Source: Candidatus Spechtbacteria bacterium RIFCSPLOWO2_12_FULL_38_22 (lineage in GTDB: Bacteria; Patescibacteriota; Minisyncoccia; Spechtbacterales; 2-12-FULL-38-22). From it: 64,000 nucleotides of DNA. The DNA lies in contig MHOK01000005.1 of assembly GCA_001820055.1 (NCBI GenBank), forward strand, positions 7,371-71,370. Direction: 5' to 3'. Position 1 is the stretch's first letter, and every line of letters begins with the position of its first letter. The notes below the pieces were generated by a model that was not told the DNA's origin, did not search any database, and was given only the letters and a program-made list of their open reading frames with translations. Position numbers and translations under genes: made by a program. Below are positions 20,016 to 53,658 of this stretch, one piece after another.

Positions 20016-20390
20016 TTATTTTTGTTTTTCAATAGACCTTATTAAACCATTAATTAACTTCTCTACATCCTTGCTTGTTTCGCCTAACTGCTGACAGCTC
20101 TCTTTGTCTATTAATTTTAAATCTCTGGCCAAAAGTAGGAAATTCTGCACTTCTGCCACAGAACCCCTTGCTTGATAATAAAATCTTATTTTGTCGTTGT
20201 AGTGATATCGCGCAAATCCCTCTGCCATATTGGCTGTAACTGAACTTGAGGCTCTCCTCAACTGACTAGTTATCCCAAACACTTCTTCTTTGGGAAACCT
20301 TTCTGTAATTTGGTAAATTTTTATGATCAACTGGTGACCCTTTTTCCAAGCGCCCAAGTCATAAAAATTTTTAATGGAATTTTCGTTCAT
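20016..20390 (-). CDS. Four-helix-bundle protein (TIGR02436-type, '23S rRNA intervening-sequence protein' family)
   Basis: 124 aa. N-terminal region (FYDLGAWKKGHQLIIKIYQITERFPKEE...SQLRRASSSVTANMAEGF) matches this family. Confidence 0.7.
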   Translation of the reverse strand: MNENSIKNFYDLGAWKKGHQLIIKIYQITERFPKEEVFGITSQLRRASSSVTANMAEGFARYHYNDKIRFYYQARGSVAEVQNFLLLARDLKLIDKESCQQLGETSKDVEKLINGLIRSIEKQK

Positions 20391-20426: not shown

Positions 20427-21875
20427 TTATTTCAAATAGTATTTCTCCTTTATATCCTGATTAACTTTTTCTTCCAGTTTTTCTTGTTTCTTTATGGCTT
20501 CTTTTTTTAACTTTTCAAGCTCTTTATCGCTCATTTTACCCAGTTCTCCTGTTCGTTTTTTTAAATAAGTCTTTTTATTTTTTAATGGATCGTCTAACAC
20601 CTCGTCTAAAAGAACGTTTAATACCTGTCCCACTTTTGGACTAGGCTTAATATCTAAAAATTTCATTACCTCGTTGCCGGAAACTTTCAACATGCCAACA
20701 GAGATAGCGTCCTTTTGTACTTTATCTATCATGTAGCGAAGATGACGAAGGCGATATGGTTCGGGCTTTGGAACGCCAGAACCCATTCTGTCGCAAATCC
20801 TTACTTTAATCAAGTCGTCCATATTTTGAGAACCAACCTTCGCGATAAGACGACGGACAGAGCTTTCCGTAACTTCGTCCACATTATAGTAAAACAGGTG
20901 ATAGCGCACTAAAGATACCACCCGTTCAATAAATTCACGTGAAAAATTAAGTCGCTCAAGGGCTTTACGCGTTATGCGCGCGCCCACAACTTCGTGGCCG
21001 TAAAAGGTTGCCTCTTCTCCTTCGCCTCTCTTTGTTTGGGGTTTACCAACATCGTGAAATAATGCGGCAAAACGCACGTGCGTAGGGTAGTCGTGTTCTG
21101 CGGCCCATTTAAGAGATAGGGCATTATGTTCAAAAACAGTATATATATGATGTTTTGATTGGTCTACCCCAACACCTTTTGCAATCTCCAGTAAAACAAG
21201 CTCTAGGAGCCCCGTATCTTTCATAAACAAAAGTCCATTATAGGCGCTTTTCGCGTTTATTAGTTTCACCAGTTCGTCTCTTACCCTTTCGCTGGCTATC
21301 AGTTTTATTAAGTGCGCATTTTTTATAATAGCCTTAAATGTCTCCTCATCAATTGTAAAATTTAACTGCGCGGCAAAACGCACACCTCTCATAAGGCGAA
21401 GTGCGTCTTCGTTAAATCTCTCATGCGGATCTCCCACCGCTTTTATAAATCCCTCTTTTAGATCTTTTTTGCCGTTAAACAAGTCAACAAGTTTGCCATC
21501 AGCGCTCATGGCAAGAGCGTTAATGGTAAAATCTCTGCGAGCTAAGTCCTTTTCAAGCGACTCTGTAAACTTAACCTCATCTGGATGGCGTTTATCAGAA
21601 TACTTTGCTTCAACTCTATAAGTTGTAACTTCTATAACCTTAAGTATTTCGTCTTTAGAATCTGTTTTCACCCCGACTGTTCCAAATGTGTTTTCGTAAA
21701 AACTATCTGGAAACAGTTTTTGAATAGCTTGAGTTTTAGCATTGGTCGTGATATCCCAGTCCTTGGGTTTTTGTTCTAATAAAATATCGCGCACGCATCC
21801 GCCTACAACATAAGCCTCAAAACCTGCTTTTTCTAATGTCTTTAATACTTTTTCTACCTCTTTTGGTATTTTCAT
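20427..21875 (-). CDS. cca: CCA-adding tRNA nucleotidyltransferase with HD domain
   Basis: PolyA-polymerase head GGCVRD. HD domain (HDVGK). 482 aa. Confidence 0.85.
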   Translation of the reverse strand: MKIPKEVEKVLKTLEKAGFEAYVVGGCVRDILLEQKPKDWDITTNAKTQAIQKLFPDSFYENTFGTVGVKTDSKDEILKVIEVTTYRVEAKYSDKRHPDEVKFTESLEKDLARRDFTINALAMSADGKLVDLFNGKKDLKEGFIKAVGDPHERFNEDALRLMRGVRFAAQLNFTIDEETFKAIIKNAHLIKLIASERVRDELVKLINAKSAYNGLLFMKDTGLLELVLLEIAKGVGVDQSKHHIYTVFEHNALSLKWAAEHDYPTHVRFAALFHDVGKPQTKRGEGEEATFYGHEVVGARITRKALERLNFSREFIERVVSLVRYHLFYYNVDEVTESSVRRLIAKVGSQNMDDLIKVRICDRMGSGVPKPEPYRLRHLRYMIDKVQKDAISVGMLKVSGNEVMKFLDIKPSPKVGQVLNVLLDEVLDDPLKNKKTYLKKRTGELGKMSDKELEKLKKEAIKKQEKLEEKVNQDIKEKYYLK

Positions 21876-21907
21876 TATCAGTTACATTTCCTAAGACTTT
21901 CTAGGGG

Positions 21908-21956
21908 AAACTTCCTGGGGGTTGAATCTCCTGGGGGTTGAACCCCCAGGAGATTG
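21908..21956. repeat. REP palindromes (1.5 copies) downstream of the RAYT-type transposase gene
   Basis: CTTCCTGGGGGTTGAA then perfect palindrome TCTCCTGGGGGTTGAACCCCCAGGAGA. Confidence 0.65.
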
Positions 21957-21990
21957 CCGCTTATTACTTCCGACTTCTAATTTCCTGTTG

Positions 21991-22019
21991 ATTTCCCGGG
22001 GGTTCAACCCCTGGGAAAT
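21991..22019. repeat. REP palindrome
   Basis: ATTTCCCGGGGGTTCAACCCCTGGGAAAT, immediately 3' of the transposase stop. Confidence 0.65.
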
Positions 22020-22024
22020 GTGCA

Positions 22025-22750
22025 TTAAAACGTATCCGCTCTAATAATATTATTCTCCGCTTTAAAATTTATCCAGTCTTCAACAATTCTGCGACAACTA
22101 CTTTCTCCTCCAAATAAGTTTAAATAAAAATCTCTTTCTGTAACTAGAGGGAAATTAGAATTTCCAATATAATCACAATAACTAGACCACCTATACCTTT
22201 CCAAAAAATTTAGTGCGTTGTTCTTGTTTTTAACTATTAATTCTTTCCAATCCGACTCCACTAGTTCTACAGGATTTGTATGAACATAGCTAAATATAAC
22301 CATTAATTGTTCGTTAGTCTTAATTTTAACACTTCTATATCTACCCTGAAATATGCCACCCATACCACTCCTATTGTACTTCTCATTAAAATATCCCGTA
22401 TATCCATTGCCTAATTTCTTCATAAATAGAGATATACCGCCATCGTTTATCTCTCTCAAAATTAAATGAAAATGATTGCGCATAAGAACAAGGGCTAAAA
22501 TAGCAACTATCGGCTTACGTTGTTTAACACTTCTAGCCTCTAACTTCTTAGGGGTTGAACCCCCAGGAAGTCGTCTTTCGTCATTCTTTAAGTCTCCTAT
22601 AACAATAAGCTCCTTGTTATTAAACCAATATAATGATTCAATAAAGCGCAAATAATCTTTATCGTCTAAAAATATATCGCGTTTATCATATCCGCGATTA
22701 TATACATGGTATATTCCATTTATTTCAAAATCTCTAGGTGGTGAAGCCAT
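22025..22750 (-). mobile_element. IS200/IS605-like Y1 HUH transposase, REP-associated (RAYT)
   Basis: 241 aa. YHVYNRGYDKRDIF N-terminal motif. HUH motif NHFHLIL. Catalytic Tyr region YVHTNPV. Flanked on both sides by REP palindromes. One REP-like copy at 22546-22575 lies in-frame inside the CDS (RLPGGSTPKKL). Confidence 0.65.
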
Positions 22751-22765
22751 AAAGTCAACCTATCA

Positions 22766-22798
22766 TACAATTCCTGGGGGTTCAACCCCCAGGAATTG
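22766..22798. repeat. REP palindrome upstream of the RAYT-type transposase gene
   Basis: Perfect palindrome ACAATTCCTGGGGGTTCAACCCCCAGGAATTGT. Confidence 0.65.
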
Positions 22799-22874
22799 TA
22801 AATTAGCCACCGAGTCCGCCGAAAGGGCGAATAAACTCCGCGAGGCGAACCAAAACTCTTTGACTTTTCCTACG

Positions 22875-22951
22875 TGGTGCTCCCGGGAGGACTCGAACCT
22901 CCAACCTTCTGGTCCGAAGCCAGACACTCTATCCGATTGAGCTACAGGAGC
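22875..22951 (-). tRNA. tRNA-Arg (anticodon TCG), CCA encoded
   Basis: Manual cloverleaf fold. Acceptor GCTCCTG/CGGGAGC. Anticodon stem TCTGG/CCAGA with loop CTTCGGA (UCG). T-arm GGAGG-TTCGAGT-CCTCC. 3' ACCA. Confidence 0.8.
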
Positions 22952-23211
22952 TATACTTTGCTCAGAAAATATTCTGAGCCACGGAAGAACTAAAAACAAA
23001 TTCAAGTTACTACTTGCTTGCCGTCCGAAGTCTTGACGAAGGATGGCCCTTCCGAAGCCCACAATGAAATAAGGGGCGTAGGAGGGAGCTACAGGAGCAT
23101 ATCGTTATTTATACCACACGCTATGCTAAAATTCAATTGAGAAGTTGACTTTAATTTAAAATTATGTTAGGATTGAGACAGCGTACGAAATCCGTACAAG
23201 GGAGGTGAAAA

Positions 23212-23706
23212 GTGACTGCTCAACAAACTAAACAGCCCGATATGTACCAGCCGGGGGATAATGGGAAGGCGACTGCGGTATTAGTTCTAATGCCAGACCC
23301 AACCAATACATACCTTGGCATTCCATTAGTGAAGGACGAAAAGCATCCTAATCCAAAATGGAAACTACCAGGAGGTAGAGGAGAGGGTGAAGAAAGCCCT
23401 TCAAAGACAGGGGTCAGGGAGTTGCTAGAAGAAACTGGTGTTAGTGTAATCCAGTCCCAGTTGTTCCCTCTTACTGAACCAGAGGATAGACACACCAATA
23501 CATTTTTCCTGTACTGGACTGTTCTTCCCCAGTACCAACCCCTTAAGGACAGGGGAACAGTAGATAAAGAACTTGTGGGATTTTTCTCGGTAGAGGAAGT
23601 TATGGAAATGGTGGAGCGGGAAGAATTTCTGCGTTCCCATGGAAAATTCCTATATCCACTTTTTAAGTATCTGCGAAGCCAACATCCCCAATTCGTTACC
23701 GCCTGA
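23212..23706 (+). CDS. NUDIX hydrolase
   Basis: Nudix box GGRGEGEESPSKTGVRELLEETGV (GGx5Ex7REuxEExGu). GTG start preceded by GGAGGTG Shine-Dalgarno. GC content clearly above the window average. Confidence 0.8.
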   Translation: MTAQQTKQPDMYQPGDNGKATAVLVLMPDPTNTYLGIPLVKDEKHPNPKWKLPGGRGEGEESPSKTGVRELLEETGVSVIQSQLFPLTEPEDRHTNTFFLYWTVLPQYQPLKDRGTVDKELVGFFSVEEVMEMVEREEFLRSHGKFLYPLFKYLRSQHPQFVTA

Positions 23707-23819
23707 AAGAACATAAATACGTCTACTCTGTGTAGGCGTATTATTATATCTGGGGATTAGAAAATAGTGACTAAATATTTTATATCTGATAGAATTATTA
23801 TGTTGCATTAATAAAAAGT

Positions 23820-24239
23820 ATGGAAAAAATTTTTAATAGAATACTATTTGGGGTATTGATCATATTTATCGCGACACTTCCGATATCTCCACAAATTACT
23901 GAAGCAGATACAAGAGGGGGCGGACTAATCCCTTGCGGAGGAACTGAAAACCCTTGCGGTGTACGGGATCTATTTGTTCTACTGCACAATGTGGTGGATT
24001 TTGGTATTACAAAACTGGCTCCCATATTCGTTGTAATGATGCTCGTAATTGGAGGGTTCCACATACTAACTTCGGCAGGTAATCCGGGGCGCGTTACCAA
24101 GGGTAAGGACCTAATAAAATGGGCCTTAATCGGTTATGCGATAGTATTATTGTCATGGATCATTATAAATACGATATTTAGTCTCATCGGCCTTGCCAAT
24201 TGGACGGGGTTAAACAAATGGTGGGAAATAAAACTATAA
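23820..24239 (+). CDS. Small exported VirB2/TrbC-like (pilin-like) two-helix protein, stand-alone paralog
   Basis: 139 aa. Signal peptide, Cys pair (PCGGTENPCG), TM1, motif SAGNPGRVTKGKDL, TM2 (ILLSWIIINTIF). Same module as the N-terminal parts of 46899-48122 and 48132-49715. Confidence 0.45.
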   Translation: MEKIFNRILFGVLIIFIATLPISPQITEADTRGGGLIPCGGTENPCGVRDLFVLLHNVVDFGITKLAPIFVVMMLVIGGFHILTSAGNPGRVTKGKDLIKWALIGYAIVLLSWIIINTIFSLIGLANWTGLNKWWEIKL

Positions 24240-24293
24240 CAATACAGTTAGTAGTGAGTAGTTGGTAGGGAGTAGTGGATAACAACAAAAAAC

Positions 24294-24367
24294 CCGCCCA
24301 TAGCTCAATCCGGCAGAGCAGCTCCCTCTTAAGGAGAAGGTTTCAGGTTCAATTCCTGATGGGCGGA
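24294..24367 (+). tRNA. tRNA-Lys (anticodon CTT)
   Basis: Manual fold. Acceptor CCGCCCA/TGGGCGG. D-stem GCTC/GAGC. Anticodon loop CTCTTAA (CUU). T-arm TCAGG-TTCAATT-CCTGA. Discriminator A. CCA not encoded. Confidence 0.78.
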
Positions 24368-24464
24368 CACTCTAGAAAACGGCTCGTACTACTTCAATAA
24401 TACTGGACATTTTTCATACAAAAATCCTTGATTTAACAAATATAGTATGGTAGCATAGATAAAT

Positions 24465-24734
24465 ATGGCATTAAAAACAGATTCTAAACAAAAAGTTATA
24501 GAAGACTACAAATTACATCCAGCCGATACGGGTTCCGCAGAAGTTCAAGTAGCTGTTCTAACAGAAGAAATTAACAAACTAGTTAAACATCTTAAGAAAC
24601 ATAAAAAAGACGACCACTCCAGACGCGGTCTTTTAATGATGGTTTCAAAAAGAAAAAGATTATTGGATTATCTCTCACGTGAAAACGAAAAGAGGTACAA
24701 AAATCTAATCAAAAAACTAGGATTAAAAAGATAA
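24465..24734 (+). CDS. rpsO: 30S ribosomal protein S15
   Basis: 89 aa. Full-length S15 match ([16 protein letters not shown]...[16 protein letters not shown]). Confidence 0.92.
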
Positions 24735-24736
24735 TC

Positions 24737-39769: not shown

Positions 39770-40582
39770 ATGGTGCAAAATATAAAAAACTTATTAGAAA
39801 AATACAATGTAACACCGAACAAAGTGCTGGGGCAAAATTTTTTAATAAACGAAGGTGTCGCAGATGAGCTTATCAAAGCGACGTGCTTAACAAAAGATGA
39901 TACTGTGGTTGAGGTCGGGCCGGGAACGGGTGTCATCACGAAAAAATTAGCGCAGATTGCAAAAAAAGTAATAGCTGTGGAAAAAGACCCTAAACTTATC
40001 CCAATTCTCCAAAAAGAACTAAAAACTTTTCTTAATATTGAAATTATAAACGAGGACATTCTTAAATTCAATCCCGCAAACTACTCACTACAAACTACCT
40101 GCCTACCGGACAGGCAGGCTCACTACTCACTACTTGGCGCCCCTCCCTATTATCTGACCGGACGCCTGTTTCGTCACTTTTTAGAACTCTCTCTTATTCG
40201 ACCGACACAAATCTCCCTTATTATACAGAAAAATGTCGCTCAAAGAATTATTGCAAAACCACCAAAATCTAATATCCTAGCAACATCTATTCAATTTTAT
40301 GGAGAACCAAGTATTATCAATATAATTTCTAAAAACTCTTTTTGGCCCCGACCCAAAGTTGATTCTGCTATTTTGGTGATTAAAGATATAAAAAATCCTA
40401 CCACAAATGAGCAAAACTTTTTTAAAATTGTGCGCGCTGGCTTTTCTTCACCAAGAAAACAGCTCAAATCAAACCTAAAACAACAATTTAAACTAGATAC
40501 GGCGTTGGAAATAGACTTTTCGCGCAGAGCAGAAACACTCACCATAAAAGAATGGGCATACTTAACAGAAAAACTGCGCTAG
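39770..40582 (+). CDS. rsmA: 16S rRNA (adenine1518/1519-N6)-dimethyltransferase
   Basis: VLGQNFLINEGV ... VVEVGPGTGVITKKL SAM-binding motif. Degenerate NLPYNIS region (APPYYLTG). Contains a 42-bp palindrome-bearing insertion at 40080-40133. Confidence 0.85.
   Translation: MVQNIKNLLEKYNVTPNKVLGQNFLINEGVADELIKATCLTKDDTVVEVGPGTGVITKKLAQIAKKVIAVEKDPKLIPILQKELKTFLNIEIINEDILKFNPANYSLQTTCLPDRQAHYSLLGAPPYYLTGRLFRHFLELSLIRPTQISLIIQKNVAQRIIAKPPKSNILATSIQFYGEPSIINIISKNSFWPRPKVDSAILVIKDIKNPTTNEQNFFKIVRAGFSSPRKQLKSNLKQQFKLDTALEIDFSRRAETLTIKEWAYLTEKLR
40080..40133 (+). repeat. Palindromic mini-element with 12-bp flanking direct repeats inside the rsmA reading frame
   Basis: ACTACTCACTAC-AAACTA-CCTGCCTACCGGACAGGCAGG-CTC-ACTACTCACTAC. 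The palindrome matches the inner module of family A repeats (CCTGCCTACCGCAGGCAGGC). Confidence 0.5.
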
Positions 40583-43021: not shown

Positions 43022-43035
43022 CAAACACAAACATT

Positions 43036-43611
43036 ATGTTGGATATTGCCCTTAATAACTACGTACAAGCATTTGATACAACTCCGCAGAAGATAAAGGA
43101 TGTGCTTTTTGCCGACTTTACATCATCGGCAATAAAAAACATTACTCACCGACATAACGCGCAAAATAACATGCTGGATATATCTGCAACCATTGGTTAT
43201 GTACTAGTTGGCCTTATTCCCGTAAAAAACATTATTGAAGTTTTAAAATTAGAAGCGCAACTTGATCAAAACACAGCTCGCAATATAGCCTATGACATAC
43301 GCGAACAGATATTCGCGCCCATAGCTCAAGAACTTGCTTCAATACAAGCGCAAGCGCAAAACAGTTGGGGACAAATCAACGTACTTCAACCGCAAACAAT
43401 GCTTACTGTAGCTCCTGTTTTAGACGAATCAATCACAAGAGAAAAACTACAAATGATTCCTCCTGCGTTACAAGACCATCCTGCCCTAGAACTCCCCACA
43501 AAAGTAGCGCCCGCCCCGCCTCAAAACTTGCCAACAGAACCAAAAGCAATAGACAATATTCCGCCCGACAATCGAATAGATTTAAGAGACAAAAGAGATA
43601 CAAGGTTTTAA
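43036..43611 (+). CDS. Hypothetical soluble protein in the T4SS-like cluster
   Basis: 191 aa. No TM. Gln/Pro-rich C-terminus. Confidence 0.3.
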   Translation: MLDIALNNYVQAFDTTPQKIKDVLFADFTSSAIKNITHRHNAQNNMLDISATIGYVLVGLIPVKNIIEVLKLEAQLDQNTARNIAYDIREQIFAPIAQELASIQAQAQNSWGQINVLQPQTMLTVAPVLDESITREKLQMIPPALQDHPALELPTKVAPAPPQNLPTEPKAIDNIPPDNRIDLRDKRDTRF

Positions 43612-43634
43612 CGCCTACTGATAAACCCGTACAC

Positions 43635-43695
43635 TATTACTAGATTGCAGAAGTACCAAATTACTAGATTACAAAATTACTAAATTACCAGATTT
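43635..43695 (+). repeat. Upstream repeat module (family U), 5' of the VirB3-like gene
   Basis: ATTACTAGATTGCAGAAGTACCAAATTACTAGATTACAAAATTACTAAATTACCAGATTTG. Confidence 0.5.
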
Positions 43696-43717
43696 GTTAT
43701 CTTGTTATTTAATTATA

Positions 43718-44119
43718 ATGCAATATTCAACTCCACAATTTATAGACAGGGAACAAAAGCTGCTGGGGCCACTAACTGTACACCAAACAGTTATTCTTGG
43801 TTTAACTACTGTGTTTTTGGTAATATCCTATTTTATATTTAATTTCTTTTTGTTTAGCGTGTTACTCGTAATTCTTGGAGGCACGAGTATCTCAATATCT
43901 TTTATTAAAATAAACGACAGACCAGTATACCAGTTTGTAACTTCTTTTTTTGGATATTTTTTAAAACCCCGCATATACATATGGCAAGGAGAATCTCAAA
44001 ATCCTGTTGCGCAACCTCAAACCACGCAAAAGACACAACAAGAAACTGAGCCTCAAAAGAGATCTCCCCAAATTACAAAAAAAGAACTAGAAGAACTGAC
44101 AGAATTTCTTAACAAATAA
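43718..44119 (+). CDS. VirB3-like small membrane protein
   Basis: Two adjacent TM helices near the N-terminus. Immediately upstream of VirB4. The ORF track starts at TTG 43694. Confidence 0.3.
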   Translation: MQYSTPQFIDREQKLLGPLTVHQTVILGLTTVFLVISYFIFNFFLFSVLLVILGGTSISISFIKINDRPVYQFVTSFFGYFLKPRIYIWQGESQNPVAQPQTTQKTQQETEPQKRSPQITKKELEELTEFLNK

Positions 44120-44120
44120 T

Positions 44121-44771
44121 ATGGCACAACCCTCAACTCAACAATTTATACCGATAGATAATATAAGAGATGATGTGGTTATTTTAAAAGGCGGGCAAAT
44201 GCGCGCTGTTTTACAAGTATCCAGCATAAACTTGGCCCTAAAATCGCAAGACGAACAGGACGCAATAATTCAAAGTTACGGAGCGTTTCTTAATTCTCTA
44301 GAATTCCCGATACAGATACTCGCAAATTCCCGCTATATGAACCTAGACGAATATCTTAAAAACCTCAACGACATGATAGAGAAACAGCCATCCGAACTGA
44401 TGCAGATACAAACCCAAGAATATATAAATTTTATACAAGAATTCTTGTCACAAGACTATGTAGTATCTACAAACTTTTACGTTACGGTGCCCTTCAGTCT
44501 GGTTGATATAGATATTCAAAAGGGCGGTGCGCAAGAAAGATTTAAAGCCTTACTTGGAAAACAAAGCGAACTATCCTATATAGACCCCAAAGAATTTGTA
44601 TCTTACAGGAACCAACTAGTGCAGAGGGTTGAATTTATAGCAAGCGGTTTGCACAGAATGGGACTTGTTATAGATATGCTAAACACCGAACAGTTAATAT
44701 CCTTGTTTTGGAGCTTGTACAATCCCGAGGACTTAAAAAAAAGGTCTTTAGTAAAATCATTATTTGAATAA
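44121..44771 (+). CDS. VirB4/TrbE-family protein, N-terminal domain encoded as a separate ORF
   Basis: IPIDNIRDDVVILKGGQMRAVLQVSSINLALKSQDEQDAI... resembles the VirB4 N-terminal domain. Stop TAA overlaps the next ORF's start (TAATATG). Confidence 0.55.
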   Translation: MAQPSTQQFIPIDNIRDDVVILKGGQMRAVLQVSSINLALKSQDEQDAIIQSYGAFLNSLEFPIQILANSRYMNLDEYLKNLNDMIEKQPSELMQIQTQEYINFIQEFLSQDYVVSTNFYVTVPFSLVDIDIQKGGAQERFKALLGKQSELSYIDPKEFVSYRNQLVQRVEFIASGLHRMGLVIDMLNTEQLISLFWSLYNPEDLKKRSLVKSLFE

Positions 44772-46542
44772 TATGAAGCAGCTTGACGCACAACAAATCA
44801 ACCAGAAAGAACTTGAGCAAGAAAAAAAAAGGCGTTTAATAAATGTCCTGGCACCTCCGGTGGTAGAAATTGAAGCAGATTTTATAAAATTAGGTGGAGT
44901 ATTTGTTCGTACATTATTTATATCAAGTTACCCTAGATTTCTTTCACAAAACTGGATCAGTCCAATTATAAATTTGGACGAAACTGTTGATGTGTCCATA
45001 TTTATACAACCGATACCAACAGAATCTGTGCTTAAAAAACTGGAAAGCCAACTGACCGGCGTGGAAGCAGATATGATGGAGCGAGAAAAAAAGGGGCTGA
45101 TTCGCGACCCATTGCTTGAAGCGGCGTATACAAATATAGAAGATTTGAGAGATAAAATGCAAACCTCAGAAGAGAGGGTATTTAAGTTTGGGTTATATTT
45201 AATGCTTTACGGAAAAACAAAAGAAGCGCTTGAAGATGTTGAAAATAAAATTAAATCCCTACTGGAAAGTAGATTGATATACGCAAAACCCGTTGTATAC
45301 AAACAAGAACAGGGAATCGTGGGTGGACTACCTCTGGGTATAGACAACCTTAAATTAAACACGAGCCTAAACACATCATCGCTTTCTGCGTCTTTCCCTT
45401 TTGTTTCTTTTGACTTATCGGACAACAAGGGCATTCTTTATGGAATTAACCGACACAATTCAAGCCTAATACTATTTGACCGTTTCTCCTTAGAAAACGC
45501 AAATACTGTGGTTTTAGGAAAAAGTGGGGGGGGTAAAAGTTATGCTGTAAAATTAGAGATTCTGCGCTCTTTAATGCTTGGCATAGACAATATTGTAATA
45601 GATCCAGAAAATGAGTATAAATATCTTGCGGAAGCGACAGGAGGCAGTTTTTTTCATATATCGCTTACAAGCGGGGACCATATAAACCCTTTTGATATAC
45701 CCCAACCCCAACCAGACGATAAACCTCAAGAGGTTTATCGGGCTAATGTAATAACCTTAATGGGACTACTCAAACTTATGCTGGGCTCTATGACCCCAGA
45801 AGAAGAAAGCGTTTTAAATGAAGCAATAGACCAAACTTATGCCTCATACGATATTACAGCGGACACAGAGAGTTTCTGGAAAAAATCTCCACCCCTAATG
45901 AGAGACCTCCAGGCCGTGCTAGAAAGCATGCAAGGGGGAGAAGCGCTTGGACAACGGTTAGAAAAATATACGAAAGGCATCTATTCAGGATTTTTAAACG
46001 AAAGAACAAACGTAGAGCTAAACGACCAGCTGGTTGTTTTAAGCATAAGGGATATGGAAGAGGAACTGCGCCCAATAGCCATGTATATAATAATTGACTA
46101 TATCTGGGGAGCTATACGGCGGGAGCTTAAAAAAAGAATTTTAACAATAGACGAGGCTTGGTGGATGCTACAACAAAAAGAAAGTGCCTCGTTTTTGTTT
46201 GGAATTGCAAAACGAGCTCGTAAATACTTTTTGGGGTTAACAACTATCTCCCAAGATATAGCAGATTTTTTAAGCAGTGACTACGGCCGCGCTATTATTG
46301 CAAATTCTTCACTTCAAATTTTAATGAAGCAGTCTCCAACCACAATAGACCAAGTGCAAGAAGTATTTAATTTGACAGATGAAGAAAAACTACTGTTACT
46401 GGAGGACAATGTGGGCGAGGGTTTGTTTTTTGCGGGAACCAAGCATGTCGCCATAAAAATAATGTCCTCCTACATAGAAGACCAAATAATAACATCCGAC
46501 CCAGAGCAACTGCTTGAAATAAAAAGAATGAAAGAAAATTAA
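44764..46542 (+). CDS. VirB4/TrbE-family T4SS ATPase, C-terminal ATPase domain
   Basis: Walker A VVLGKSGGGKSY. DPENEY motif. Walker B ILTIDEAWWML. Probable ATG start at 44773. Confidence 0.85.
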   Translation: MNNMKQLDAQQINQKELEQEKKRRLINVLAPPVVEIEADFIKLGGVFVRTLFISSYPRFLSQNWISPIINLDETVDVSIFIQPIPTESVLKKLESQLTGVEADMMEREKKGLIRDPLLEAAYTNIEDLRDKMQTSEERVFKFGLYLMLYGKTKEALEDVENKIKSLLESRLIYAKPVVYKQEQGIVGGLPLGIDNLKLNTSLNTSSLSASFPFVSFDLSDNKGILYGINRHNSSLILFDRFSLENANTVVLGKSGGGKSYAVKLEILRSLMLGIDNIVIDPENEYKYLAEATGGSFFHISLTSGDHINPFDIPQPQPDDKPQEVYRANVITLMGLLKLMLGSMTPEEESVLNEAIDQTYASYDITADTESFWKKSPPLMRDLQAVLESMQGGEALGQRLEKYTKGIYSGFLNERTNVELNDQLVVLSIRDMEEELRPIAMYIIIDYIWGAIRRELKKRILTIDEAWWMLQQKESASFLFGIAKRARKYFLGLTTISQDIADFLSSDYGRAIIANSSLQILMKQSPTTIDQVQEVFNLTDEEKLLLLEDNVGEGLFFAGTKHVAIKIMSSYIEDQIITSDPEQLLEIKRMKEN

Positions 46543-46543
46543 T

Positions 46544-46897
46544 ATGGCTTTGCTCCACAAGAAATTAAAAAAGCGTATAGAAAAAGAATCTGTGTGGGGA
46601 GATAACTTCTTAATATTATTCTGGGCTATATTTATAGACATTATAGGATTTATTTCCGGATTATTGGGATTTCTTATTGTTCCTATAATATTTTCTAACA
46701 TTCTAAGTTCCATAGCCGGTATTCCTATTTTTGTTTGGGGTTATAAAAAATATAAAAAACGCGGAGGCTTTGGTGTTTGGAAATACATAAAACAAGTCTG
46801 GAGGACATCTCTAGCAGAAACGCTTGTAAGCCCGGGACCATGGTTAACTTTATTCGTAAGAAAAACAATACGAGGTAAAAAAATATTTAAATTCTAA
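46544..46897 (+). CDS. Small membrane protein in the T4SS-like cluster
   Basis: 117 aa. Basic N-terminus and 2-3 TM helices. Confidence 0.35.
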   Translation: MALLHKKLKKRIEKESVWGDNFLILFWAIFIDIIGFISGLLGFLIVPIIFSNILSSIAGIPIFVWGYKKYKKRGGFGVWKYIKQVWRTSLAETLVSPGPWLTLFVRKTIRGKKIFKF

Positions 46898-46898
46898 A

Positions 46899-48122
46899 AT
46901 GCTAAACTTCACAAAAAAGTCCACAAGCATTCTTGCGCTCTTCATACTAGTTTTTGGCGGTTGGGGTATAAACGCAAACACGCATGACACACGAGAAGCT
47001 GATATAATATATACTCCGCCATCCGAAGCAACTACCACAGCGGGAGAACCCATAGAACTGGGACCTATAAAATGCAACGTTAACTGGCCACGAATTCCTA
47101 TTCCGGGCGGAACTTTTGACCTAAACGAGTACTGCCAACCGGGCGCTTCAATAAGTATCGGCACCGTGATTGCCGCAATATATGCAACAGCACTCTGGCT
47201 TGGCGGTTTAATCGCATTTGGCGCTTTGTTTTATTCAGGGTTTTTATATATATTTTCTGGAAATGTTCCGGCAAATCGGTCTAAAGCGCGGGGTATGCTA
47301 GTTAATGTAGCATGGGGCATGGGAATACTACTACTTTCCTGGGTAACGCTCAGGTTGATAAATCCAGATATAACTAACCTAAAATTCCAAGAACCTCAAA
47401 AAACTAGAGTATGTCTGGACGCCAATCAGATAAACTGCATACCGGTGCCGGGTTTTATAGGAAGAGTCTCCTATAGCCCATACAATGCCGGAGATCCCTT
47501 GGAATCGGCTAGATGTATCGGGACAGGAGATGTGCGAGTGGGAGACTCCACTCTAAACAGTCTGGCAAATATTATGTGTGAAAGCGAAGAACTACTTAGA
47601 AAAGACGCCCATTCTTACCTAATACAGGCTGTCGGAAATTCAAATTGTTCTCAAGAGGATGTGGATGCGCTGTTGTTAAAAACAGAAACACTATGTCCTG
47701 CGAACCAGCCCGGAGATGAAGCGCTGGGAATAACCGGGGACACTGTGTCAACTGGTTTATGCTACTGGCAAGGACAATACGGTGGGGGAGCAGGAATATC
47801 TTTTGGAGCAAGCGGAGCTGTATATTTTCCGAATGACTATCTAGGCGATGCAGCTGATGATTTTTTGGAAATTGCTAACCTAGACATAATTGATGCTACG
47901 TCTCCCAGTGCCGAATTCGTTAATGCTATTCAAAAAAACCTTGACGCTGTTTTTGACTATTGTTCAAACGAAGATTCTAACCCCAACATCTGCATACTAC
48001 TGGACGAAGACGAATCCAACATCGCTGACCTAAACCCAGCACGAAGGGAGGCGCTACGTTGTTTCTGCACCAGGGACATATTACCATCCAAGTGGAACCC
48101 ATCTTTCCCTGAATGCAACTAA
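46899..48122 (+). CDS. Exported protein: VirB2/TrbC-like two-helix module fused to a Cys-rich ectodomain
   Basis: Signal peptide. Residues ~67-165 read IPGGTFDLNEYC...GGLIAFGALFYSGFLYIFSGNVPANRSKARGMLVNVAWGMGILLLSWVTLRLINPD, paralogous to the 23820 and 48132 proteins. C-terminal ~240 aa has 14 Cys. Confidence 0.45.
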   Translation: MLNFTKKSTSILALFILVFGGWGINANTHDTREADIIYTPPSEATTTAGEPIELGPIKCNVNWPRIPIPGGTFDLNEYCQPGASISIGTVIAAIYATALWLGGLIAFGALFYSGFLYIFSGNVPANRSKARGMLVNVAWGMGILLLSWVTLRLINPDITNLKFQEPQKTRVCLDANQINCIPVPGFIGRVSYSPYNAGDPLESARCIGTGDVRVGDSTLNSLANIMCESEELLRKDAHSYLIQAVGNSNCSQEDVDALLLKTETLCPANQPGDEALGITGDTVSTGLCYWQGQYGGGAGISFGASGAVYFPNDYLGDAADDFLEIANLDIIDATSPSAEFVNAIQKNLDAVFDYCSNEDSNPNICILLDEDESNIADLNPARREALRCFCTRDILPSKWNPSFPECN

Positions 48123-48131
48123 ACACCCTTT

Positions 48132-49715
48132 ATGATTATTAAAAATAAAAAATACATAATACTGGGCTTATCTATTTTGGTACTATTGCCTACTACCTTT
48201 GTATACGCCGCAGAGTCCCCAAACATAATCTTTAATACGAACTTCCCAGCAATTCCCGCTCCAGTACCAGGAGGGTTTTTTGATTTAAATTGCATAGAAG
48301 GATTAAACTCTAATCTGTGTAGTAGCAACTTTGAATATGCTCCAACTATTGGAAACATAATTTTATTTATATTTACCGCCGCGATATGGATCGGCGGACT
48401 TGTCGCATTTGGGGTTTTATTCTACGGCGGGTTTTTATATATATTTTCTGGAAACGCTCCGGCTAATCGATCTAAAGCGCGAGGCATGTTGGTTAATGTA
48501 GCATGGGGAATTGGGATTTTACTCCTTTCTGTTGTATTTTTAAACTTAATAAACCCTGATGTTGCTAACTTGCGTTTTGAGAACCCCGAAGCCATCCAAA
48601 CTTGTCCCGACGGCACAACTGATTGTATAACCTACCCAGAATTGCCAAAACAATACAACACATTTGGATGTAGTTGGAACGAACAGGAAGACAAGTGCGA
48701 AATAGCCCAAGATACCGTAGCGTGTACACTTGGGTTTAAAACCTCTGGTGTGTGTGAAAAAGTTAATGGACTTCATAACCAAAATAGCTTACTTGATAAC
48801 GAAAAGGTTTGTAAAAGCTTAAAATCAAATGCTTGCGCGCTAAGTTCTGAGGGCGAAGACGCAGTTGGCAATGTTGGTTCCTATGTAGCATGTCTTGGAA
48901 CTTGCCTGTCACAAGGAAAATTAGAGGCAACATGCCAAAACGAGTGTTCTGTTTATACAGGAGGGGGCAGCGGATACTCTTGCCGGGAAAGATGCCAGGA
49001 AACCCTTCCTCCACAACTAGCGCATGAGTGTTCAGAGCTTCCGTCATGCTTAGAAACTCCCCCCGGAGTTACACCTGCAGCTGACGGATATTTTAAACTA
49101 CCCGCTTCAAATTTTTATACCAAAAGATACGAAGACGCATCGTGTGGCAAATTAGAACTAATACAAGCAATATATGTTGTGGCAAAAAGATGGTCAGAAA
49201 TAGGGGGGTCTAAAATGAATGTAACGGATTTAAACGGGGGAGGAGATTACAACTCCGGAGTTTGCCACTCAACCCATAATAGAGGCATCGACGTTGATAT
49301 TCATATTGAAGGTGTAACGCTGCACAAAACAGCAAATTCTGGAGAGTGGCTAATTAAACTGGGTAAACTACTAGTGGACACCGGGGTCGTGTCAGGATTC
49401 ATACACAGAACTGATGCTCCCCAGGATGCCGCAGCTTTAGAAGTTGTTAATAGATACTTTGAGAATAAATTCCCAAATCGAAACCCCTGGCACCCACCAT
49501 GGGCTCTAAATGAGGGGTTCTGGAGGACGGATACTGCAGGTAATCACGAAGATCATATGCACATACATATTGGCGACTCAGACGGAGCAACGGGGACAGG
49601 AATTCAACCTGGACCATACAATAGGTCTTGTAGTAGGGATACAACCTTAAGATATTATTCGAGCTCCGATTATTGTTGCTATAGAACAGATGGAGGGCAA
49701 CAAAAGTGTGGTTAG
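48132..49715 (+). CDS. Exported protein: VirB2/TrbC-like module, Cys-rich region, C-terminal LAS/M15-like zinc peptidase domain
   Basis: Residues ~40-145 are paralogous to the 46899 protein (FSGNAPANRSKARGMLVNVAWGIGILLLS). Residues ~375-482 read CHSTHNRGIDVDIH ... NHEDHMHIH, fitting SxHxxGxxxD plus HxH of Hedgehog/DD-peptidase-fold (M15) enzymes. Confidence 0.5.
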   Translation: MIIKNKKYIILGLSILVLLPTTFVYAAESPNIIFNTNFPAIPAPVPGGFFDLNCIEGLNSNLCSSNFEYAPTIGNIILFIFTAAIWIGGLVAFGVLFYGGFLYIFSGNAPANRSKARGMLVNVAWGIGILLLSVVFLNLINPDVANLRFENPEAIQTCPDGTTDCITYPELPKQYNTFGCSWNEQEDKCEIAQDTVACTLGFKTSGVCEKVNGLHNQNSLLDNEKVCKSLKSNACALSSEGEDAVGNVGSYVACLGTCLSQGKLEATCQNECSVYTGGGSGYSCRERCQETLPPQLAHECSELPSCLETPPGVTPAADGYFKLPASNFYTKRYEDASCGKLELIQAIYVVAKRWSEIGGSKMNVTDLNGGGDYNSGVCHSTHNRGIDVDIHIEGVTLHKTANSGEWLIKLGKLLVDTGVVSGFIHRTDAPQDAAALEVVNRYFENKFPNRNPWHPPWALNEGFWRTDTAGNHEDHMHIHIGDSDGATGTGIQPGPYNRSCSRDTTLRYYSSSDYCCYRTDGGQQKCG

Positions 49716-49740
49716 TTGTTTATTATTAACATAAAAGTAA

Positions 49741-50394
49741 ATGAAGCATAATCTGAAAACTTTATTAGCCTTTGGCGGCTTACTGCTGGGTTTAACTTTG
49801 ATATTTGTATTTATAAATAGGTTATGGGATGTACAAGATCCAGAAACTTTTGTAATAAAGAGAACAGACCAAACAACAACGCAATGGGATAGAATTTTAC
49901 AACAAAAAGACACAGAGAACGCAAAGATTATAACTAATGTATACGACGGCTACGAAATAACAATTCCAAAAAATTGGCTAGCTCCCCAAAAAAGTCCCTC
50001 TGCCCTACGTCTATATTCATACGAACAGCTACAATACCGTACAGAAAAAAATCTATTAGAAAATATAGAAAAATGGCCCCCACTAGAACACGAGATGCCG
50101 ATATTCAGTATAGATATCTTAGAAAAAATAGAAAAAACCCCTCTAGATGTTTGGCTAAACACCTCGCCCTTTGTAACAAACGTCCTCCCTGGTGAATTAA
50201 TTTTTAAAAAAATAAAAATAAACACTTTGGAAGCCTTGAAAGCTATACAACAAACATATGAAGAAGACGGTAGCCTAGGACTTATGCAAAGTGTCTTTGT
50301 TGTGTCTGGTAAGAATAGAGTTTACATCTTAACCTGCGCCGACGACTTACAAAAATGTGAAAACGCGATAAAAACCTTTAAAATCCTCGAATAA
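49741..50394 (+). CDS. Bitopic membrane protein, possibly VirB8-like
   Basis: 217 aa. N-terminal TM plus ~190-aa extracytoplasmic domain, the VirB8/PrgL topology and size. No motif-level support. Confidence 0.25.
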   Translation: MKHNLKTLLAFGGLLLGLTLIFVFINRLWDVQDPETFVIKRTDQTTTQWDRILQQKDTENAKIITNVYDGYEITIPKNWLAPQKSPSALRLYSYEQLQYRTEKNLLENIEKWPPLEHEMPIFSIDILEKIEKTPLDVWLNTSPFVTNVLPGELIFKKIKINTLEALKAIQQTYEEDGSLGLMQSVFVVSGKNRVYILTCADDLQKCENAIKTFKILE

Positions 50395-50406
50395 GTGGGC
50401 CCACAA

Positions 50407-50456
50407 ATCAACAAATAAACGTTTCAAACCTGGTTTGAAACGTTTATTTGTTGATT
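50407..50456. terminator. Palindromic hairpin (family H copy 2) between convergent genes
   Basis: AATCAACAAATAAACGTTTCAAACC-T-GGTTTGAAACGTTTATTTGTTGATT. Shares AAATAAACGTTTCAA arms with 8758-8803. Confidence 0.6.
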
Positions 50457-50457
50457 T

Positions 50458-53080: not shown

Positions 53081-53087
53081 AATTAAA

Positions 53088-53655: not shown

Positions 53656-53658
53656 ATA

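What the first reader, a model, noticed from the sequence alone, without database searches (positions are those of the whole stretch)
22952..24293. High-GC islet between tRNA-Arg and tRNA-Lys carrying a Nudix gene and a third, stand-alone copy of the pilin-like module
GC content rises clearly above the ~33% background. The islet is bounded by two tRNAs and adjoins the REP-associated transposase (RAYT) and its REPs. A 13-nt copy of the tRNA-Arg 5' end (GAGCTACAGGAGC) recurs at 23085-23097. The 139-aa exported protein has the same Cys-pair/TM/SAGNPGRVTKGKD/TM architecture as the N-termini of the 46899 and 48132 proteins. It may be the major subunit and the fused versions minor or tip subunits. 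This points to horizontal acquisition or an integration scar.
Basis: partly seen in the sequence, partly recalled or inferred. Interest (0 to 1): 0.6.

Follow-up and report, generated by a model that had tools for sequence, protein, structure and literature searches.

The report
Secretion pilin gene between two tRNAs
The flagged stretch is not a foreign DNA island: it is a rearranged copy of an old gene cluster in which a small pilin-like protein of the Patescibacteria type IV secretion system sits between a tRNA-Arg and a tRNA-Lys gene, here with a Nudix gene inserted beside it.

Summary
The features are real, but the 'high-GC islet' is not. The window is 38.5% GC, not about 33%. The inter-tRNA stretch is 41.2%, the 83rd percentile of same-size windows. 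Only the Nudix gene (46%) is raised, and its orthologues in relatives are raised too.

The 139-aa protein belongs to Pfam PF18895 (T4SS_pilin), the VirB2-like pilin family already described for Patescibacteria. The two fused proteins at 46899 and 48132 are distant members of the same family. Profiles detect this; pairwise search does not.

The organism is a Candidatus Spechtbacteria genome from an aquifer. Relatives with 60-62% identical pilins keep tRNA-Arg(TCG)/Nudix/pilin/tRNA-Lys(CTT)/rpsO, so recent horizontal acquisition is not supported.

The unexpected result concerns the tRNAs. In 80 metagenome loci of this pilin subfamily, grouped into 52 clusters at 90% identity, 40 of 49 assessable clusters have tRNA-Lys(CTT) after the stop codon (median gap 8 nt). 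In 31 of 48, tRNA-Arg lies just before the first ATG (median gap 13 nt). The two tRNAs are therefore the gene's conserved partners, probably co-transcribed with it, not island borders.

The window holds a derived form: tRNA-Arg inverted, Nudix inserted, and a RAYT with its REPs inserted alongside.

The parts
22875..22951 (-). tRNA-Arg (anticodon TCG), CCA encoded. It is inverted relative to the arrangement seen in most relatives, where it is on the same strand as the pilin gene.
   Evidence: ARAGORN; Rfam tRNA 70.2 bits; orientation in relatives
23086..23098 (-). Exact 13-nt copy of the first 13 nt of tRNA-Arg, in the same orientation and 147 nt upstream of the intact gene. Together with a 9-nt anticodon-loop match (GGCTTCGGA) further on, it may be a decayed partial duplicate of the tRNA.
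   Evidence: The extra 9-mer match is weak: 22 of 500 shuffles reach the same score. The copy is absent from the related species L007 and L011 and identical in all same-species contigs.
23145..23173 (+). Promoter-like site (TTGACT, 17 nt, TAGGAT, with TG) ahead of the Nudix gene. A strong Shine-Dalgarno sequence, GGGAGGTG, follows at 23200-23207.
   Evidence: Consensus scan; a similar TTGACT...TATGATAAT element lies before the L007 orthologue
23212..23706 (+). Nudix hydrolase gene (164 aa, GTG start) of unknown substrate. It occupies the variable slot between tRNA-Arg and the pilin gene.
   Evidence: PF00293 at E 1.5e-11. Only sub-threshold matches to MutT and other specific subfamilies. Orthologues in L007 and L011 are 37% identical.
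23716..23742 (+). Terminator-like hairpin (11-bp stem) after the Nudix gene
23767..23795 (+). Promoter-like site (GTGACT, 17 nt, TAGAAT, with TG) ahead of the pilin gene
   Evidence: a consensus match only
23820..24239 (+). Stand-alone VirB2-like pilin family protein (PF18895, 139 aa). It has a signal helix, a Cys38/Cys45 loop, a helix hairpin (residues 48-83 and 89-123) joined by the SAGNP loop, and a conserved WTGL..WW tail.
24294..24368 (+). tRNA-Lys (anticodon CTT), 54 nt after the pilin stop codon with no terminator-like site between them. It is the conserved downstream partner of this pilin subfamily.
24465..24734 (+). rpsO (ribosomal protein S15), followed by an NYN-domain gene and pnp. 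This is the conserved right-hand neighbourhood.
   Evidence: synteny
21909..22795 (-). RAYT-like Y1 transposase gene (22025-22750) with five REP palindromes (21914-22015, 22547-22567, 22773-22793). This insertion is specific to the lineage and lies between the cca gene and tRNA-Arg.
   Evidence: absent from the related loci
43694..46542 (+). Core of the type IV secretion locus: PrgI/VirB3-like (43694-44119), TrsD/VirB4-N-like (44121-44771) and the VirB4 ATPase (44764-46542)
46899..49715 (+). Two paralogous proteins (407 aa and 527 aa) with an N-terminal PF18895 hairpin fused to Cys-rich extracellular domains. The second carries a weak MepA/M74-like peptidase signal.
   Evidence: The orthologue P0203 carries a Peptidase_M23 domain instead.

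Best explanation
The stretch is a rearranged version of an old, vertically inherited cluster, cca(-) / tRNA-Arg(TCG) / pilin / tRNA-Lys(CTT) / rpsO-NYN-pnp, in a Candidatus Spechtbacteria genome. It is not an acquired island.

The 139-aa gene encodes a member of the VirB2-like pilin family of Patescibacteria (PF18895). The protein is exported with a cleavable signal peptide. It inserts as a hairpin of two hydrophobic helices joined by a short basic loop, with both ends outside the cell. It is most likely the small, abundant subunit used by the type IV secretion machine encoded about 20 kb away, next to dnaA. That last step is inferred.

The two neighbours of VirB4 use the same hairpin to carry large extracellular domains. 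One of these is probably a cell-wall peptidase.

In most relatives the pilin ORF is wedged between the two tRNA genes on one strand, with gaps of 0-20 nt. It must therefore be transcribed with them. tRNA processing probably sets the ends of the mRNA: RNase P at the 5' end of tRNA-Lys and 3' trimming of tRNA-Arg. The processing step is inferred.

In the window's clade three changes occurred. A Nudix gene with its own promoter and Shine-Dalgarno sequence entered the slot between tRNA-Arg and the pilin gene. tRNA-Arg became inverted. In this species alone, a RAYT/REP block and a short partial tRNA-Arg duplicate were added. The pilin gene now has its own promoter-like site but still sits 54 nt upstream of tRNA-Lys with no terminator between.
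For: Family membership:
- PF18895 hits lie above the gathering score for all three proteins.
- An independent family profile finds only those three among 465 ORFs.
- The AlphaFold2 model shows a signal helix plus a helix hairpin, with pLDDT 80.9.
- The family has 28,531 representatives, and many of the best-scoring ones are fused or tandem.

Link to the type IV secretion system:
- PrgI, TrsD and VirB4 lie in the window.
- A 47%-identical relative sits directly upstream of PrgI-TraC-VirB4 next to dnaA.
- Published surveys place PF18895 pilins in 1,948 Patescibacteria assemblies, near virB4 in 1,135 of them (PMC12102498).

Not an island:
- GC is at the 83rd percentile.
- The pilin gene's codon usage is ordinary.
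- Nudix orthologues in relatives are also about 4 GC points above their loci.
- Synteny is kept at 60-62% pilin identity and down to 35-43%.

tRNA sandwich, among 52 clusters at 90% identity:
- tRNA-Lys(CTT) follows on the same strand in 40 of 49 clusters (median gap 8 nt).
- tRNA-Arg precedes in 31 of 48 (median gap 13 nt; 14 clusters with 10 nt or less).
- Both are present in 28 of 45.

Derived state of the window:
- tRNA-Arg orientation.
- RAYT is absent from relatives.
- Promoter-like and terminator-like sites.
Against: - No pilus built from these proteins has been seen in any Patescibacterium, and the function of their type IV secretion system is unknown (PMC11665869).
- The window protein has no direct PF04956 (TrbC/VirB2) hit and no sequence match to any solved pilin.
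- The gene lies 20 kb from virB4, so the functional link is by family and by a relative's context only.
- Co-transcription with the tRNAs and processing by RNase P are inferred from spacing. No transcript data were available.
- In the window itself the 5' tRNA partner is inverted and 868 nt away, so the tight arrangement is not present here.
- Only 64 kb of the genome was available for the composition tests.
Confidence: 0.72

Rival explanations
1. One reading: the stretch is a horizontally acquired islet, or the scar of an element that integrated at a tRNA gene. It brought in the Nudix and pilin genes.
For: - Two tRNA genes bound the stretch.
- A 13-nt tRNA-Arg fragment recurs 147 nt away.
- A RAYT with REPs adjoins it.
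- The Nudix gene has the highest GC among 56 ORFs (z 2.2) and a strong Shine-Dalgarno sequence.
- The slot between tRNA-Arg and the pilin gene holds different genes in different lineages.
Against: - Whole-stretch GC is only at the 83rd percentile, and the stated background was wrong.
- Pilin codon usage is ordinary.
- Nudix orthologues in relatives show the same GC excess.
- The full block is conserved in species with 60-62% identical pilins and 37% identical Nudix proteins.
- The pilin-between-tRNAs core is conserved far more widely.
- No integrase is present.
- The repeat copies the 5' end of the tRNA, not the 3' end, and encloses only 134 bp.
- At most, the Nudix gene alone is an old insertion shared by the clade.
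Confidence: 0.07
2. The PF18895 hairpin is not a polymerising pilin. It is a general two-helix membrane module that anchors or presents extracellular parts at the cell surface. On this view the stand-alone 139-aa protein is a small membrane protein whose conserved outside segments (the Cys loop and the WTGL..WW tail) do the work, for example as a receptor, adhesin base or assembly factor.
For: - Of the 148 best family representatives, 84 are longer than 200 aa. Many carry large domains before or after the hairpin, or several hairpins in tandem.
- The most conserved positions of the subfamily lie in the extracellular Cys loop and the C-terminal tail.
- Fold searches cannot separate it from generic hairpins.
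- No pilus has been observed.
Against: - The top hit of both fold searches is a conjugation pilin.
- Several relatives also match PF04956 TrbC/VirB2.
- A sub-threshold match to the Mycoplasma ICE pilin-like protein family NF045849.
- Relatives sit directly beside PrgI and VirB4 (PMC12102498).
Confidence: 0.22
3. The 13-nt repeat and the position between two tRNAs are coincidences of a compact genome and carry no meaning.
For: - Patescibacteria genomes are tightly packed.
- An unrelated 13-nt match between the same intergenic stretch and 40014-40026 shows that 13-mers do recur by chance at window scale.
Against: - By my own calculation, a 13-nt match to the adjacent 77-nt tRNA within 260 nt is expected about 5e-4 times under uniform base composition. 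The match also starts exactly at the tRNA's first base, in the same orientation.
- The same two tRNA species flank the orthologous ORF in most of 52 sequence clusters, which chance cannot produce.
Confidence: 0.03

Closest known systems
VirB2-like pilins of the Patescibacteria type IV secretion system (Pfam PF18895 T4SS_pilin; Quinonero-Coronel et al. 2025, PMC12102498; Wang et al. 2023 as cited there and in PMC12857230)
   Same: - Hits the same Pfam family above threshold.
- Same small size, signal peptide and two-helix hairpin.
- Several divergent paralogues occur in one genome.
- The secretion locus lies next to dnaA.
- No relaxase is visible in the locus.
   Different: - This copy lies 20 kb from virB4, inside a tRNA/rpsO neighbourhood.
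- The survey paper reports pilins near virB4 in 1,135 of 1,948 assemblies. It never mentions tRNA genes and does not describe fusions of the hairpin to other domains.
Conjugative pilins VirB2/TrbC/TraA (PF04956) and the archaeal Ced pilin of Aeropyrum pernix (PDB 8dfu)
   Same: - A helix-loop-helix hairpin with a short polar or basic loop and a cleaved leader.
   Different: - No sequence-level match for the window protein.
- An extra Cys-containing N-terminal loop and an aromatic C-terminal tail.
- The host is a monoderm with an MPF-FATA-like machine, a class that normally lacks VirB2.
Protein genes co-transcribed with tRNA genes: the E. coli thrU-tyrU-glyT-thrT-tufB operon, and the mitochondrial tRNA punctuation model (both from my own knowledge, not checked here)
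   Same: An ORF directly abutting tRNA genes on the same strand, so that tRNA processing would define the mRNA ends. Gaps of 0-7 nt in many relatives resemble mitochondrial punctuation.
   Different: - No transcript evidence exists here.
- In bacteria such tight two-sided flanking of a single ORF has not, to my knowledge, been described.
- The window itself has lost the tight 5' junction.
tRNA-gene-targeted genomic islands and integrative elements
   Same: The stretch is adjacent to tRNA genes, a short tRNA-derived direct repeat is present, and a transposase-like gene lies nearby.
   Different: - No integrase.
- The repeat is of the tRNA 5' end and only 147 bp away.
- Composition is ordinary.
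- The block is conserved in related species.
- The two flanking tRNAs are different species, not att repeats.
Mycoplasma ICE pilin-like protein (NCBIfam NF045849, Mbov_0395 family)
   Same: Weak match over the hairpin (E 7e-5). The neighbouring TrsD-like ORF matches the Mycoplasma ICE VirB4 family. This fits the reported MPF-FATA ancestry.
   Different: The score of 22.4 bits is below the family cut-off of 40, so the protein is not a member.

Membership tests
Pfam PF18895 T4SS_pilin (VirB2-like pilins of Patescibacteria) | Score above the curated gathering threshold | tested here: met
   39.9 bits against 26.6 for the 139-aa protein; 30.5 and 31.1 bits for the two fused proteins
Pfam PF18895 T4SS_pilin (VirB2-like pilins of Patescibacteria) | N-terminal leader followed by two hydrophobic helices joined by a short polar or basic loop | tested here: met
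   AlphaFold2 model: helices 2-19, 48-83 and 89-123, with the loop SAGNP and pLDDT 80.9
Pfam PF18895 T4SS_pilin (VirB2-like pilins of Patescibacteria) | Encoded in a genome with a VirB4-type secretion locus, usually near it | tested here: inconclusive
   VirB4, PrgI and TrsD are in the same window but 20 kb away. A 47%-identical relative lies directly upstream of PrgI-VirB4.
Pfam PF18895 T4SS_pilin (VirB2-like pilins of Patescibacteria) | Polymerises into a pilus or conduit | not testable with these tools
   No experimental evidence exists for any member (PMC11665869)
TrbC/VirB2 conjugative pilins (PF04956) | Sequence match to the family model | tested here: not met
   No hit at E <= 0.1 for the window protein. 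Six distant relatives carry precomputed PF04956 hits.
TrbC/VirB2 conjugative pilins (PF04956) | Fold like that of solved conjugative pilins | tested here: inconclusive
tRNA-associated genomic island / integrative element | Composition or codon usage distinct from the host | tested here: not met
   83rd percentile GC; pilin z-scores below 1.6; only Nudix reaches z 2.2, and its orthologues show the same excess. Only 64 kb was available as background.
tRNA-associated genomic island / integrative element | Integrase or recombinase gene at one border | tested here: not met
   The neighbours are RAYT (a Y1 HUH transposase-like gene), cca, rpsO, an NYN-domain gene and pnp
tRNA-associated genomic island / integrative element | Direct repeat of the tRNA 3' part at the distal border | tested here: not met
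   The repeat copies tRNA nucleotides 1-13 (the 5' end) and lies 147 nt from the gene. Nothing comparable lies near tRNA-Lys.
tRNA-associated genomic island / integrative element | Absent from the same site in related genomes | tested here: not met
   The block is present in L007, L011 and L012 and, without Nudix, in many more distant loci
Nudix hydrolases (PF00293) | Nudix box GX5EX7REUXEEXGU and a family model hit | tested here: met
   GRGEGEESPSKTGVRELLEETGV read from the sequence; PF00293 at 44.9 bits against 21.1
MutT 8-oxo-dGTP diphosphatase (NCBIfam NF008044 / TIGR00586) | Score above the equivalog cut-off | tested here: not met
   32.9 bits against 148, and 20.8 against 97.9. The substrate remains unknown.
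REP-associated tyrosine transposase (RAYT) | Y1 transposase domain flanked by REP palindromes | tested here: met
   PF01797 at 27.9 bits against 23. Five REP copies lie on both sides and one lies inside the ORF, with 0 expected.
tRNA-punctuated (co-transcribed and processed) mRNA | ORF abuts tRNA genes on the same strand, leaving no room for its own promoter or terminator | tested here: inconclusive
   Met in most relatives, with median gaps of 13 nt (5' side) and 8 nt (3' side). In the window, only the 3' side is close (54 nt), and the 5' tRNA is inverted and 868 nt away.
tRNA-punctuated (co-transcribed and processed) mRNA | A single precursor transcript cut by RNase P and a 3' tRNA-processing nuclease | not testable with these tools
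   No transcript data. The RNase P protein gene rnpA is present at 53320-53655.

The most novel reading that the evidence does not exclude
In this pilin subfamily the gene is expressed as a tRNA-punctuated message. One transcript would carry tRNA-Arg, the pilin ORF and tRNA-Lys (often also tRNA-His). RNase P cutting at the 5' end of tRNA-Lys would leave an mRNA that ends at or a few bases past its stop codon. 3' trimming of tRNA-Arg would leave a nearly leaderless mRNA with an A-rich start. That would be a bacterial counterpart of mitochondrial tRNA punctuation. It would tie production of the main secretion-system pilin to the strong, growth-linked tRNA promoters. The window shows how the arrangement decays, through tRNA inversion, gene insertion and gain of a new promoter.
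Probability: 0.35. Interest if true: 0.65.

Novelty: new member of a known kind. Interest (0 to 1): 0.4.

Why it matters
The type IV secretion system is the only such system shown to be essential for its bearer. This was shown in one Saccharibacterium, according to reviews PMC11665869 and PMC12857230, and its role in Patescibacteria is unknown.

Knowing which of the many pilin-like paralogues is the main, highly expressed subunit would help to find the filament or conduit. A pilin gene held between two tRNA genes across a wide range of Parcubacteria-type genomes marks a candidate for that role.

The arrangement also offers a simple, testable case of mRNA ends set by tRNA processing in bacteria.

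For genome annotation, it warns that tRNA genes on both sides of a small gene need not mean an integrated element.

Tried and rejected
- **Rfam on 21800-24500 (E <= 1) and on the whole window (gathering score).** Only the two tRNAs were found. Nothing was found in the 260-nt tRNA-Arg/Nudix spacer. The weak His-leader and miRNA hits are the REP palindromes.
- **Folding of the spacer's minus strand.** z is -2.27, too weak to claim a structured RNA.
- **Treating 23040-23098 as a decayed tRNA half.** Apart from the 13-mer, only a 9-nt anticodon-loop match supports it, and 22 of 500 shuffles reach that score. I left it as 'possible'.
- **Search for a remnant of a plus-strand tRNA-Arg before the pilin gene.** None was found.
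- **Pairwise phmmer among the three modules.** No hits. Only profiles link them.
- **Profile search against PDB sequences.** No pilin was found. The weak PsaF hits rest on the signal peptide and a 'LVPC' motif and were discarded.
- **GTDB genome scan with the pilin alignment.** It returned one distant locus without the tRNA context.
- **Sequence search of the C-terminal domain of the 527-aa protein against PDB.** Nothing meaningful. Its peptidase nature rests on sub-threshold M74/MepA matches and on an orthologue that carries M23 instead.
- **Cluster-member names.** These gave almost no further taxonomy.
- **Promoter scan upstream of tRNA-Arg in the tight loci.** 14 of 33 loci have a 9-of-12 or better match, and about 11 of these end 6-16 nt before the tRNA. 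This is suggestive, but the DNA is AT-rich and no control was run.
Full report
**What is there**

The flagged interval 22952-24293 is exactly the space between tRNA-Arg(TCG) at 22875-22951 on the minus strand and tRNA-Lys(CTT) at 24294-24368 on the plus strand. It holds two plus-strand genes.

- The first is a 164-aa Nudix hydrolase gene at 23212-23706. It hits PF00293 at E 1.5e-11, and the Nudix box GRGEGEESPSKTGVRELLEETGV is complete.
- The second is a 139-aa gene at 23820-24239.

To the left lie a RAYT-like Y1 transposase gene (22025-22750) and five REP palindromes, and then the CCA-adding enzyme gene. To the right lie rpsO, an NYN-domain gene and pnp.

An exact match of the 407-aa protein to an NCBI entry names the organism as Candidatus Spechtbacteria bacterium RIFCSPLOWO2_12_FULL. 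The same DNA is in assembly GCA_001821845.1 and in several aquifer metagenomes.

**Check of the observation**

The composition claim does not hold.

- The window is 38.5% GC, not about 33%.
- The interval is 41.2% GC, the 83rd percentile of same-size windows. Other parts of the window reach 47%.
- Among 56 ORFs, the pilin gene is ordinary: GC z 0.7, GC3 z 1.1, codon-usage z 1.6.
- Only the Nudix gene is raised: 46.1% GC (z 2.2) and GC3 z 2.1.
- Nudix orthologues in two related species are likewise about 4 points above their loci. The excess therefore belongs to the gene, not to a recent arrival.

The 13-mer GAGCTACAGGAGC is real.

- It is the first 13 nt of the tRNA, in the same orientation, 147 nt upstream of it.
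- By my own estimate, a match of that length to the adjacent tRNA within 260 nt is expected about 5e-4 times.
- At whole-window scale such 13-mers do occur by chance, and one unrelated match was found.
- A 9-nt match to the anticodon loop further along hints at a decayed partial tRNA copy, but 22 of 500 shuffles do as well.
- The segment is identical in all same-species contigs and missing from the related species.

**The 139-aa protein**

It scores 39.9 bits on Pfam PF18895 (T4SS_pilin), against a cut-off of 26.6.

An AlphaFold2 model built on 47 relatives has pLDDT 80.9. It shows a signal helix (residues 2-19), a poorly ordered loop holding Cys38 and Cys45, and two long helices (48-83 and 89-123) joined by SAGNP.

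Fold searches give the following.

- The Agrobacterium T-pilus VirB2 ranks 14th in Foldseek.
- Generic hairpins score nearly as well, so the fold evidence fits a pilin but does not prove it.

No sequence-level match to any solved structure was found.

The family is very large. A profile search gave 28,531 representatives at E <= 0.001. Of the 148 best, 64 are 200 aa or shorter and 84 are longer, with the hairpin at either end or repeated in tandem.

**The 'three modules'**

Pairwise search does not link the 139-aa protein to the proteins at 46899 and 48132. The link appears at profile level.

- Both fused proteins pass the PF18895 threshold.
- A profile built only from relatives of the 139-aa protein picks out exactly those two among 465 window ORFs (E 2e-9 and 9e-9; next best 0.07).

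They are therefore distant family members, not copies. The two fused proteins are close paralogues of each other (E 4e-43).

They follow a type IV secretion core: PrgI/VirB3-like, a TrsD-like ORF that matches the N-terminal part of VirB4, and the VirB4 ATPase. This locus lies next to yidC, rnpA, dnaA and dnaN. That layout matches the published survey of Patescibacteria secretion systems.

The survey already reports the following (PMC12102498).

- PF18895 pilins occur in 1,948 assemblies and lie near virB4 in 1,135 of them.
- Arrays of 2-11 divergent pilin genes occur.
- The system lies close to the replication origin.

Reviews state that the system is essential in one Saccharibacterium and that its role is unknown.

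**Is it an acquired island?**

No. Orthologous pilin genes at 60-62% identity lie in the same order: cca(-), tRNA-Arg(TCG)(-), Nudix, pilin, tRNA-Lys(CTT), rpsO, NYN, pnp. These are Candidatus Spechtbacteria GCA_001821885.1 and an unnamed relative. They lack the RAYT.

More distant orthologues (35-43% identity) still lie between cca and rpsO or nusA. One relative instead lies directly before PrgI-TraC-VirB4 beside dnaA.

No integrase is present, and the repeat geometry is wrong for a tRNA-targeted element.

**The unexpected part: the tRNAs belong to the gene**

In the distant loci the pilin ORF is directly flanked, on its own strand, by tRNA-Arg(TCG) and tRNA-Lys(CTT). A metagenome scan with the subfamily alignment returned 80 loci, and I ran ARAGORN on them. 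After grouping the ORF products at 90% identity into 52 clusters, the counts were as follows.

| Feature | 90% identity clusters | 70% identity clusters |
|---|---|---|
| tRNA-Lys(CTT), same strand, within 150 nt after the stop | 40 of 49 | 23 of 30 |
| tRNA-Arg, same strand, within 150 nt before the first ATG | 31 of 48 | 15 of 28 |
| Both | 28 of 45 | 13 of 26 |

At 90% clustering:

- The median gap to tRNA-Lys is 8 nt. It is 20 nt or less in 30 clusters and 0 nt in several loci.
- The median gap from tRNA-Arg is 13 nt, and 14 clusters have 10 nt or less.
- tRNA-His(GTG) often follows tRNA-Lys.

The junction sequences show the first ATG 1-7 nt after the tRNA-Arg end. An A-rich coding start follows, for example MKNEKLKIKK, ahead of the signal-peptide core. 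The stop codon abuts the first base of tRNA-Lys.

Such spacers leave no room for a separate promoter, ribosome-binding site or terminator. Co-transcription with the tRNAs is therefore a strong inference.

That RNase P and 3' tRNA trimming set the mRNA ends, leaving a nearly leaderless message, is a further inference. I could not test it.

Promoter-like sites ending 6-16 nt before tRNA-Arg occur in about a third of the tight loci. No control was run for this.

The survey paper does not mention tRNA at all. Two full-text searches found no description of such an arrangement. That library is incomplete.

**How the window fits**

The window shows a derived state.

- In its clade, tRNA-Arg is inverted. 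The slot between it and the pilin gene holds the Nudix gene, which has its own promoter-like site (23145-23173), a strong Shine-Dalgarno sequence, and a terminator-like hairpin (23716-23742).
- The pilin gene has a promoter-like site at 23767-23795.
- The pilin gene is followed, after 54 nt and with no terminator-like site, by tRNA-Lys.
- The same slot holds other genes or N-terminal extensions in other lineages, so it is the variable point of an otherwise fixed cluster.
- The RAYT/REP block and the 13-nt tRNA fragment are specific to this species.

**Mechanism, with what is shown and what is inferred**

Shown:
- family membership;
- the hairpin architecture;
- a VirB4-type locus in the same 64 kb;
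- conserved synteny;
- the tRNA flanking in relatives.

Inferred:
- The protein is exported, and its leader is cleaved after about residue 29.
- It inserts with both ends outside and the basic loop inside.
- It serves the VirB4 machine as its small subunit.
- The fused paralogues present extracellular domains by the same hairpin. One of these domains is probably a peptidoglycan peptidase, given sub-threshold MepA/M74 matches and an orthologue with an M23 domain.
It gains indirect support if the tRNA context means high expression.

The main rival is that the hairpin is a general membrane anchor rather than a polymerising pilin. I give that about 0.2.

**Verdict**

The finding as written, a high-GC acquired islet, is not supported. 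The pilin-like protein is a new member of a known, very large family. The one point of real interest came out of the follow-up: a widely conserved tRNA-Arg / pilin / tRNA-Lys sandwich. The window holds a broken-up version of it.

Noticed in passing
window 22545-22569 (inside the RAYT ORF 22025-22750, minus strand): One REP palindrome (TTCTTAGGGGTTGAACCCCCAGGAA) lies inside the RAYT-like ORF without breaking the frame. It encodes ...LPGGSTPKK... between the N-terminal YHV motif and the HFH (HUH) motif. The Pfam match covers only residues 82-158.
   Followed up: partly
window 48132-49715 (+) and protein P0203: The 527-aa protein joins a PF18895 hairpin to a C-terminal domain with H-x6-D and HxH motifs and weak MepA/M74 matches (E 0.0015 and 0.0056, both below cut-off). 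An orthologue that is 46% identical over the N-terminal half carries a Peptidase_M23 domain instead. So a pilin-like hairpin fused to a cell-wall peptidase recurs with different peptidase types.
   Followed up: partly
window 44121-44771 and 44764-46542 (+): The VirB4 function seems split. A 216-aa ORF matches the N-terminal part of VirB4-type ATPases and TrsD. It overlaps by 8 nt the start of the 592-aa ATPase ORF that carries the P-loop domain.
   Followed up: no
window 40592-56736: The secretion locus (40.6-49.7 kb) lies within a few kb of jag/yidC/rnpA (51.9-53.7 kb, minus strand) and dnaA/dnaN (54.0-56.7 kb). This is the origin-proximal layout reported for Patescibacteria. The 809-aa polytopic membrane protein at 40592-43021, possibly the VirB6 counterpart, has no Pfam or NCBIfam hit.
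   Followed up: partly
window 23200-23211, compared with 23805-23819, 24450-24464 and 24722-24736: The Nudix gene has a strong GGGAGGTG Shine-Dalgarno sequence before its GTG start. The pilin, rpsO and NYN genes show no obvious one. I judged this by eye only.
   Followed up: no
loci L027-L098, and L015 757-829: In many relatives a tRNA-Pro(CGG) on the minus strand lies about 1.55 kb before tRNA-Arg, with the cca gene between them. The conserved block is therefore efp(-)/tRNA-Pro(-)/cca(-)/tRNA-Arg(+)/pilin/tRNA-Lys/(tRNA-His)/rpsO. The window has no tRNA-Pro.
   Followed up: partly
window 20016-20390 (-): A 124-aa gene next to cca matches PF05635 (23S rRNA intervening-sequence protein) and, weakly, bAvd. 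Copies recur in the related loci, two of them in L011.
   Followed up: no
protein P0001 compared with window 23820-24239: A 99%-identical variant from another sample differs at only two positions (Gly40Val and Gly47Cys). Both lie in the extracellular Cys loop.
   Followed up: no
window 22960-22979: A perfect 8-bp hairpin (GCTCAGAA AATA TTCTGAGC) lies 9 nt upstream of the tRNA-Arg 5' end on its strand. Its role is unknown.
   Followed up: no
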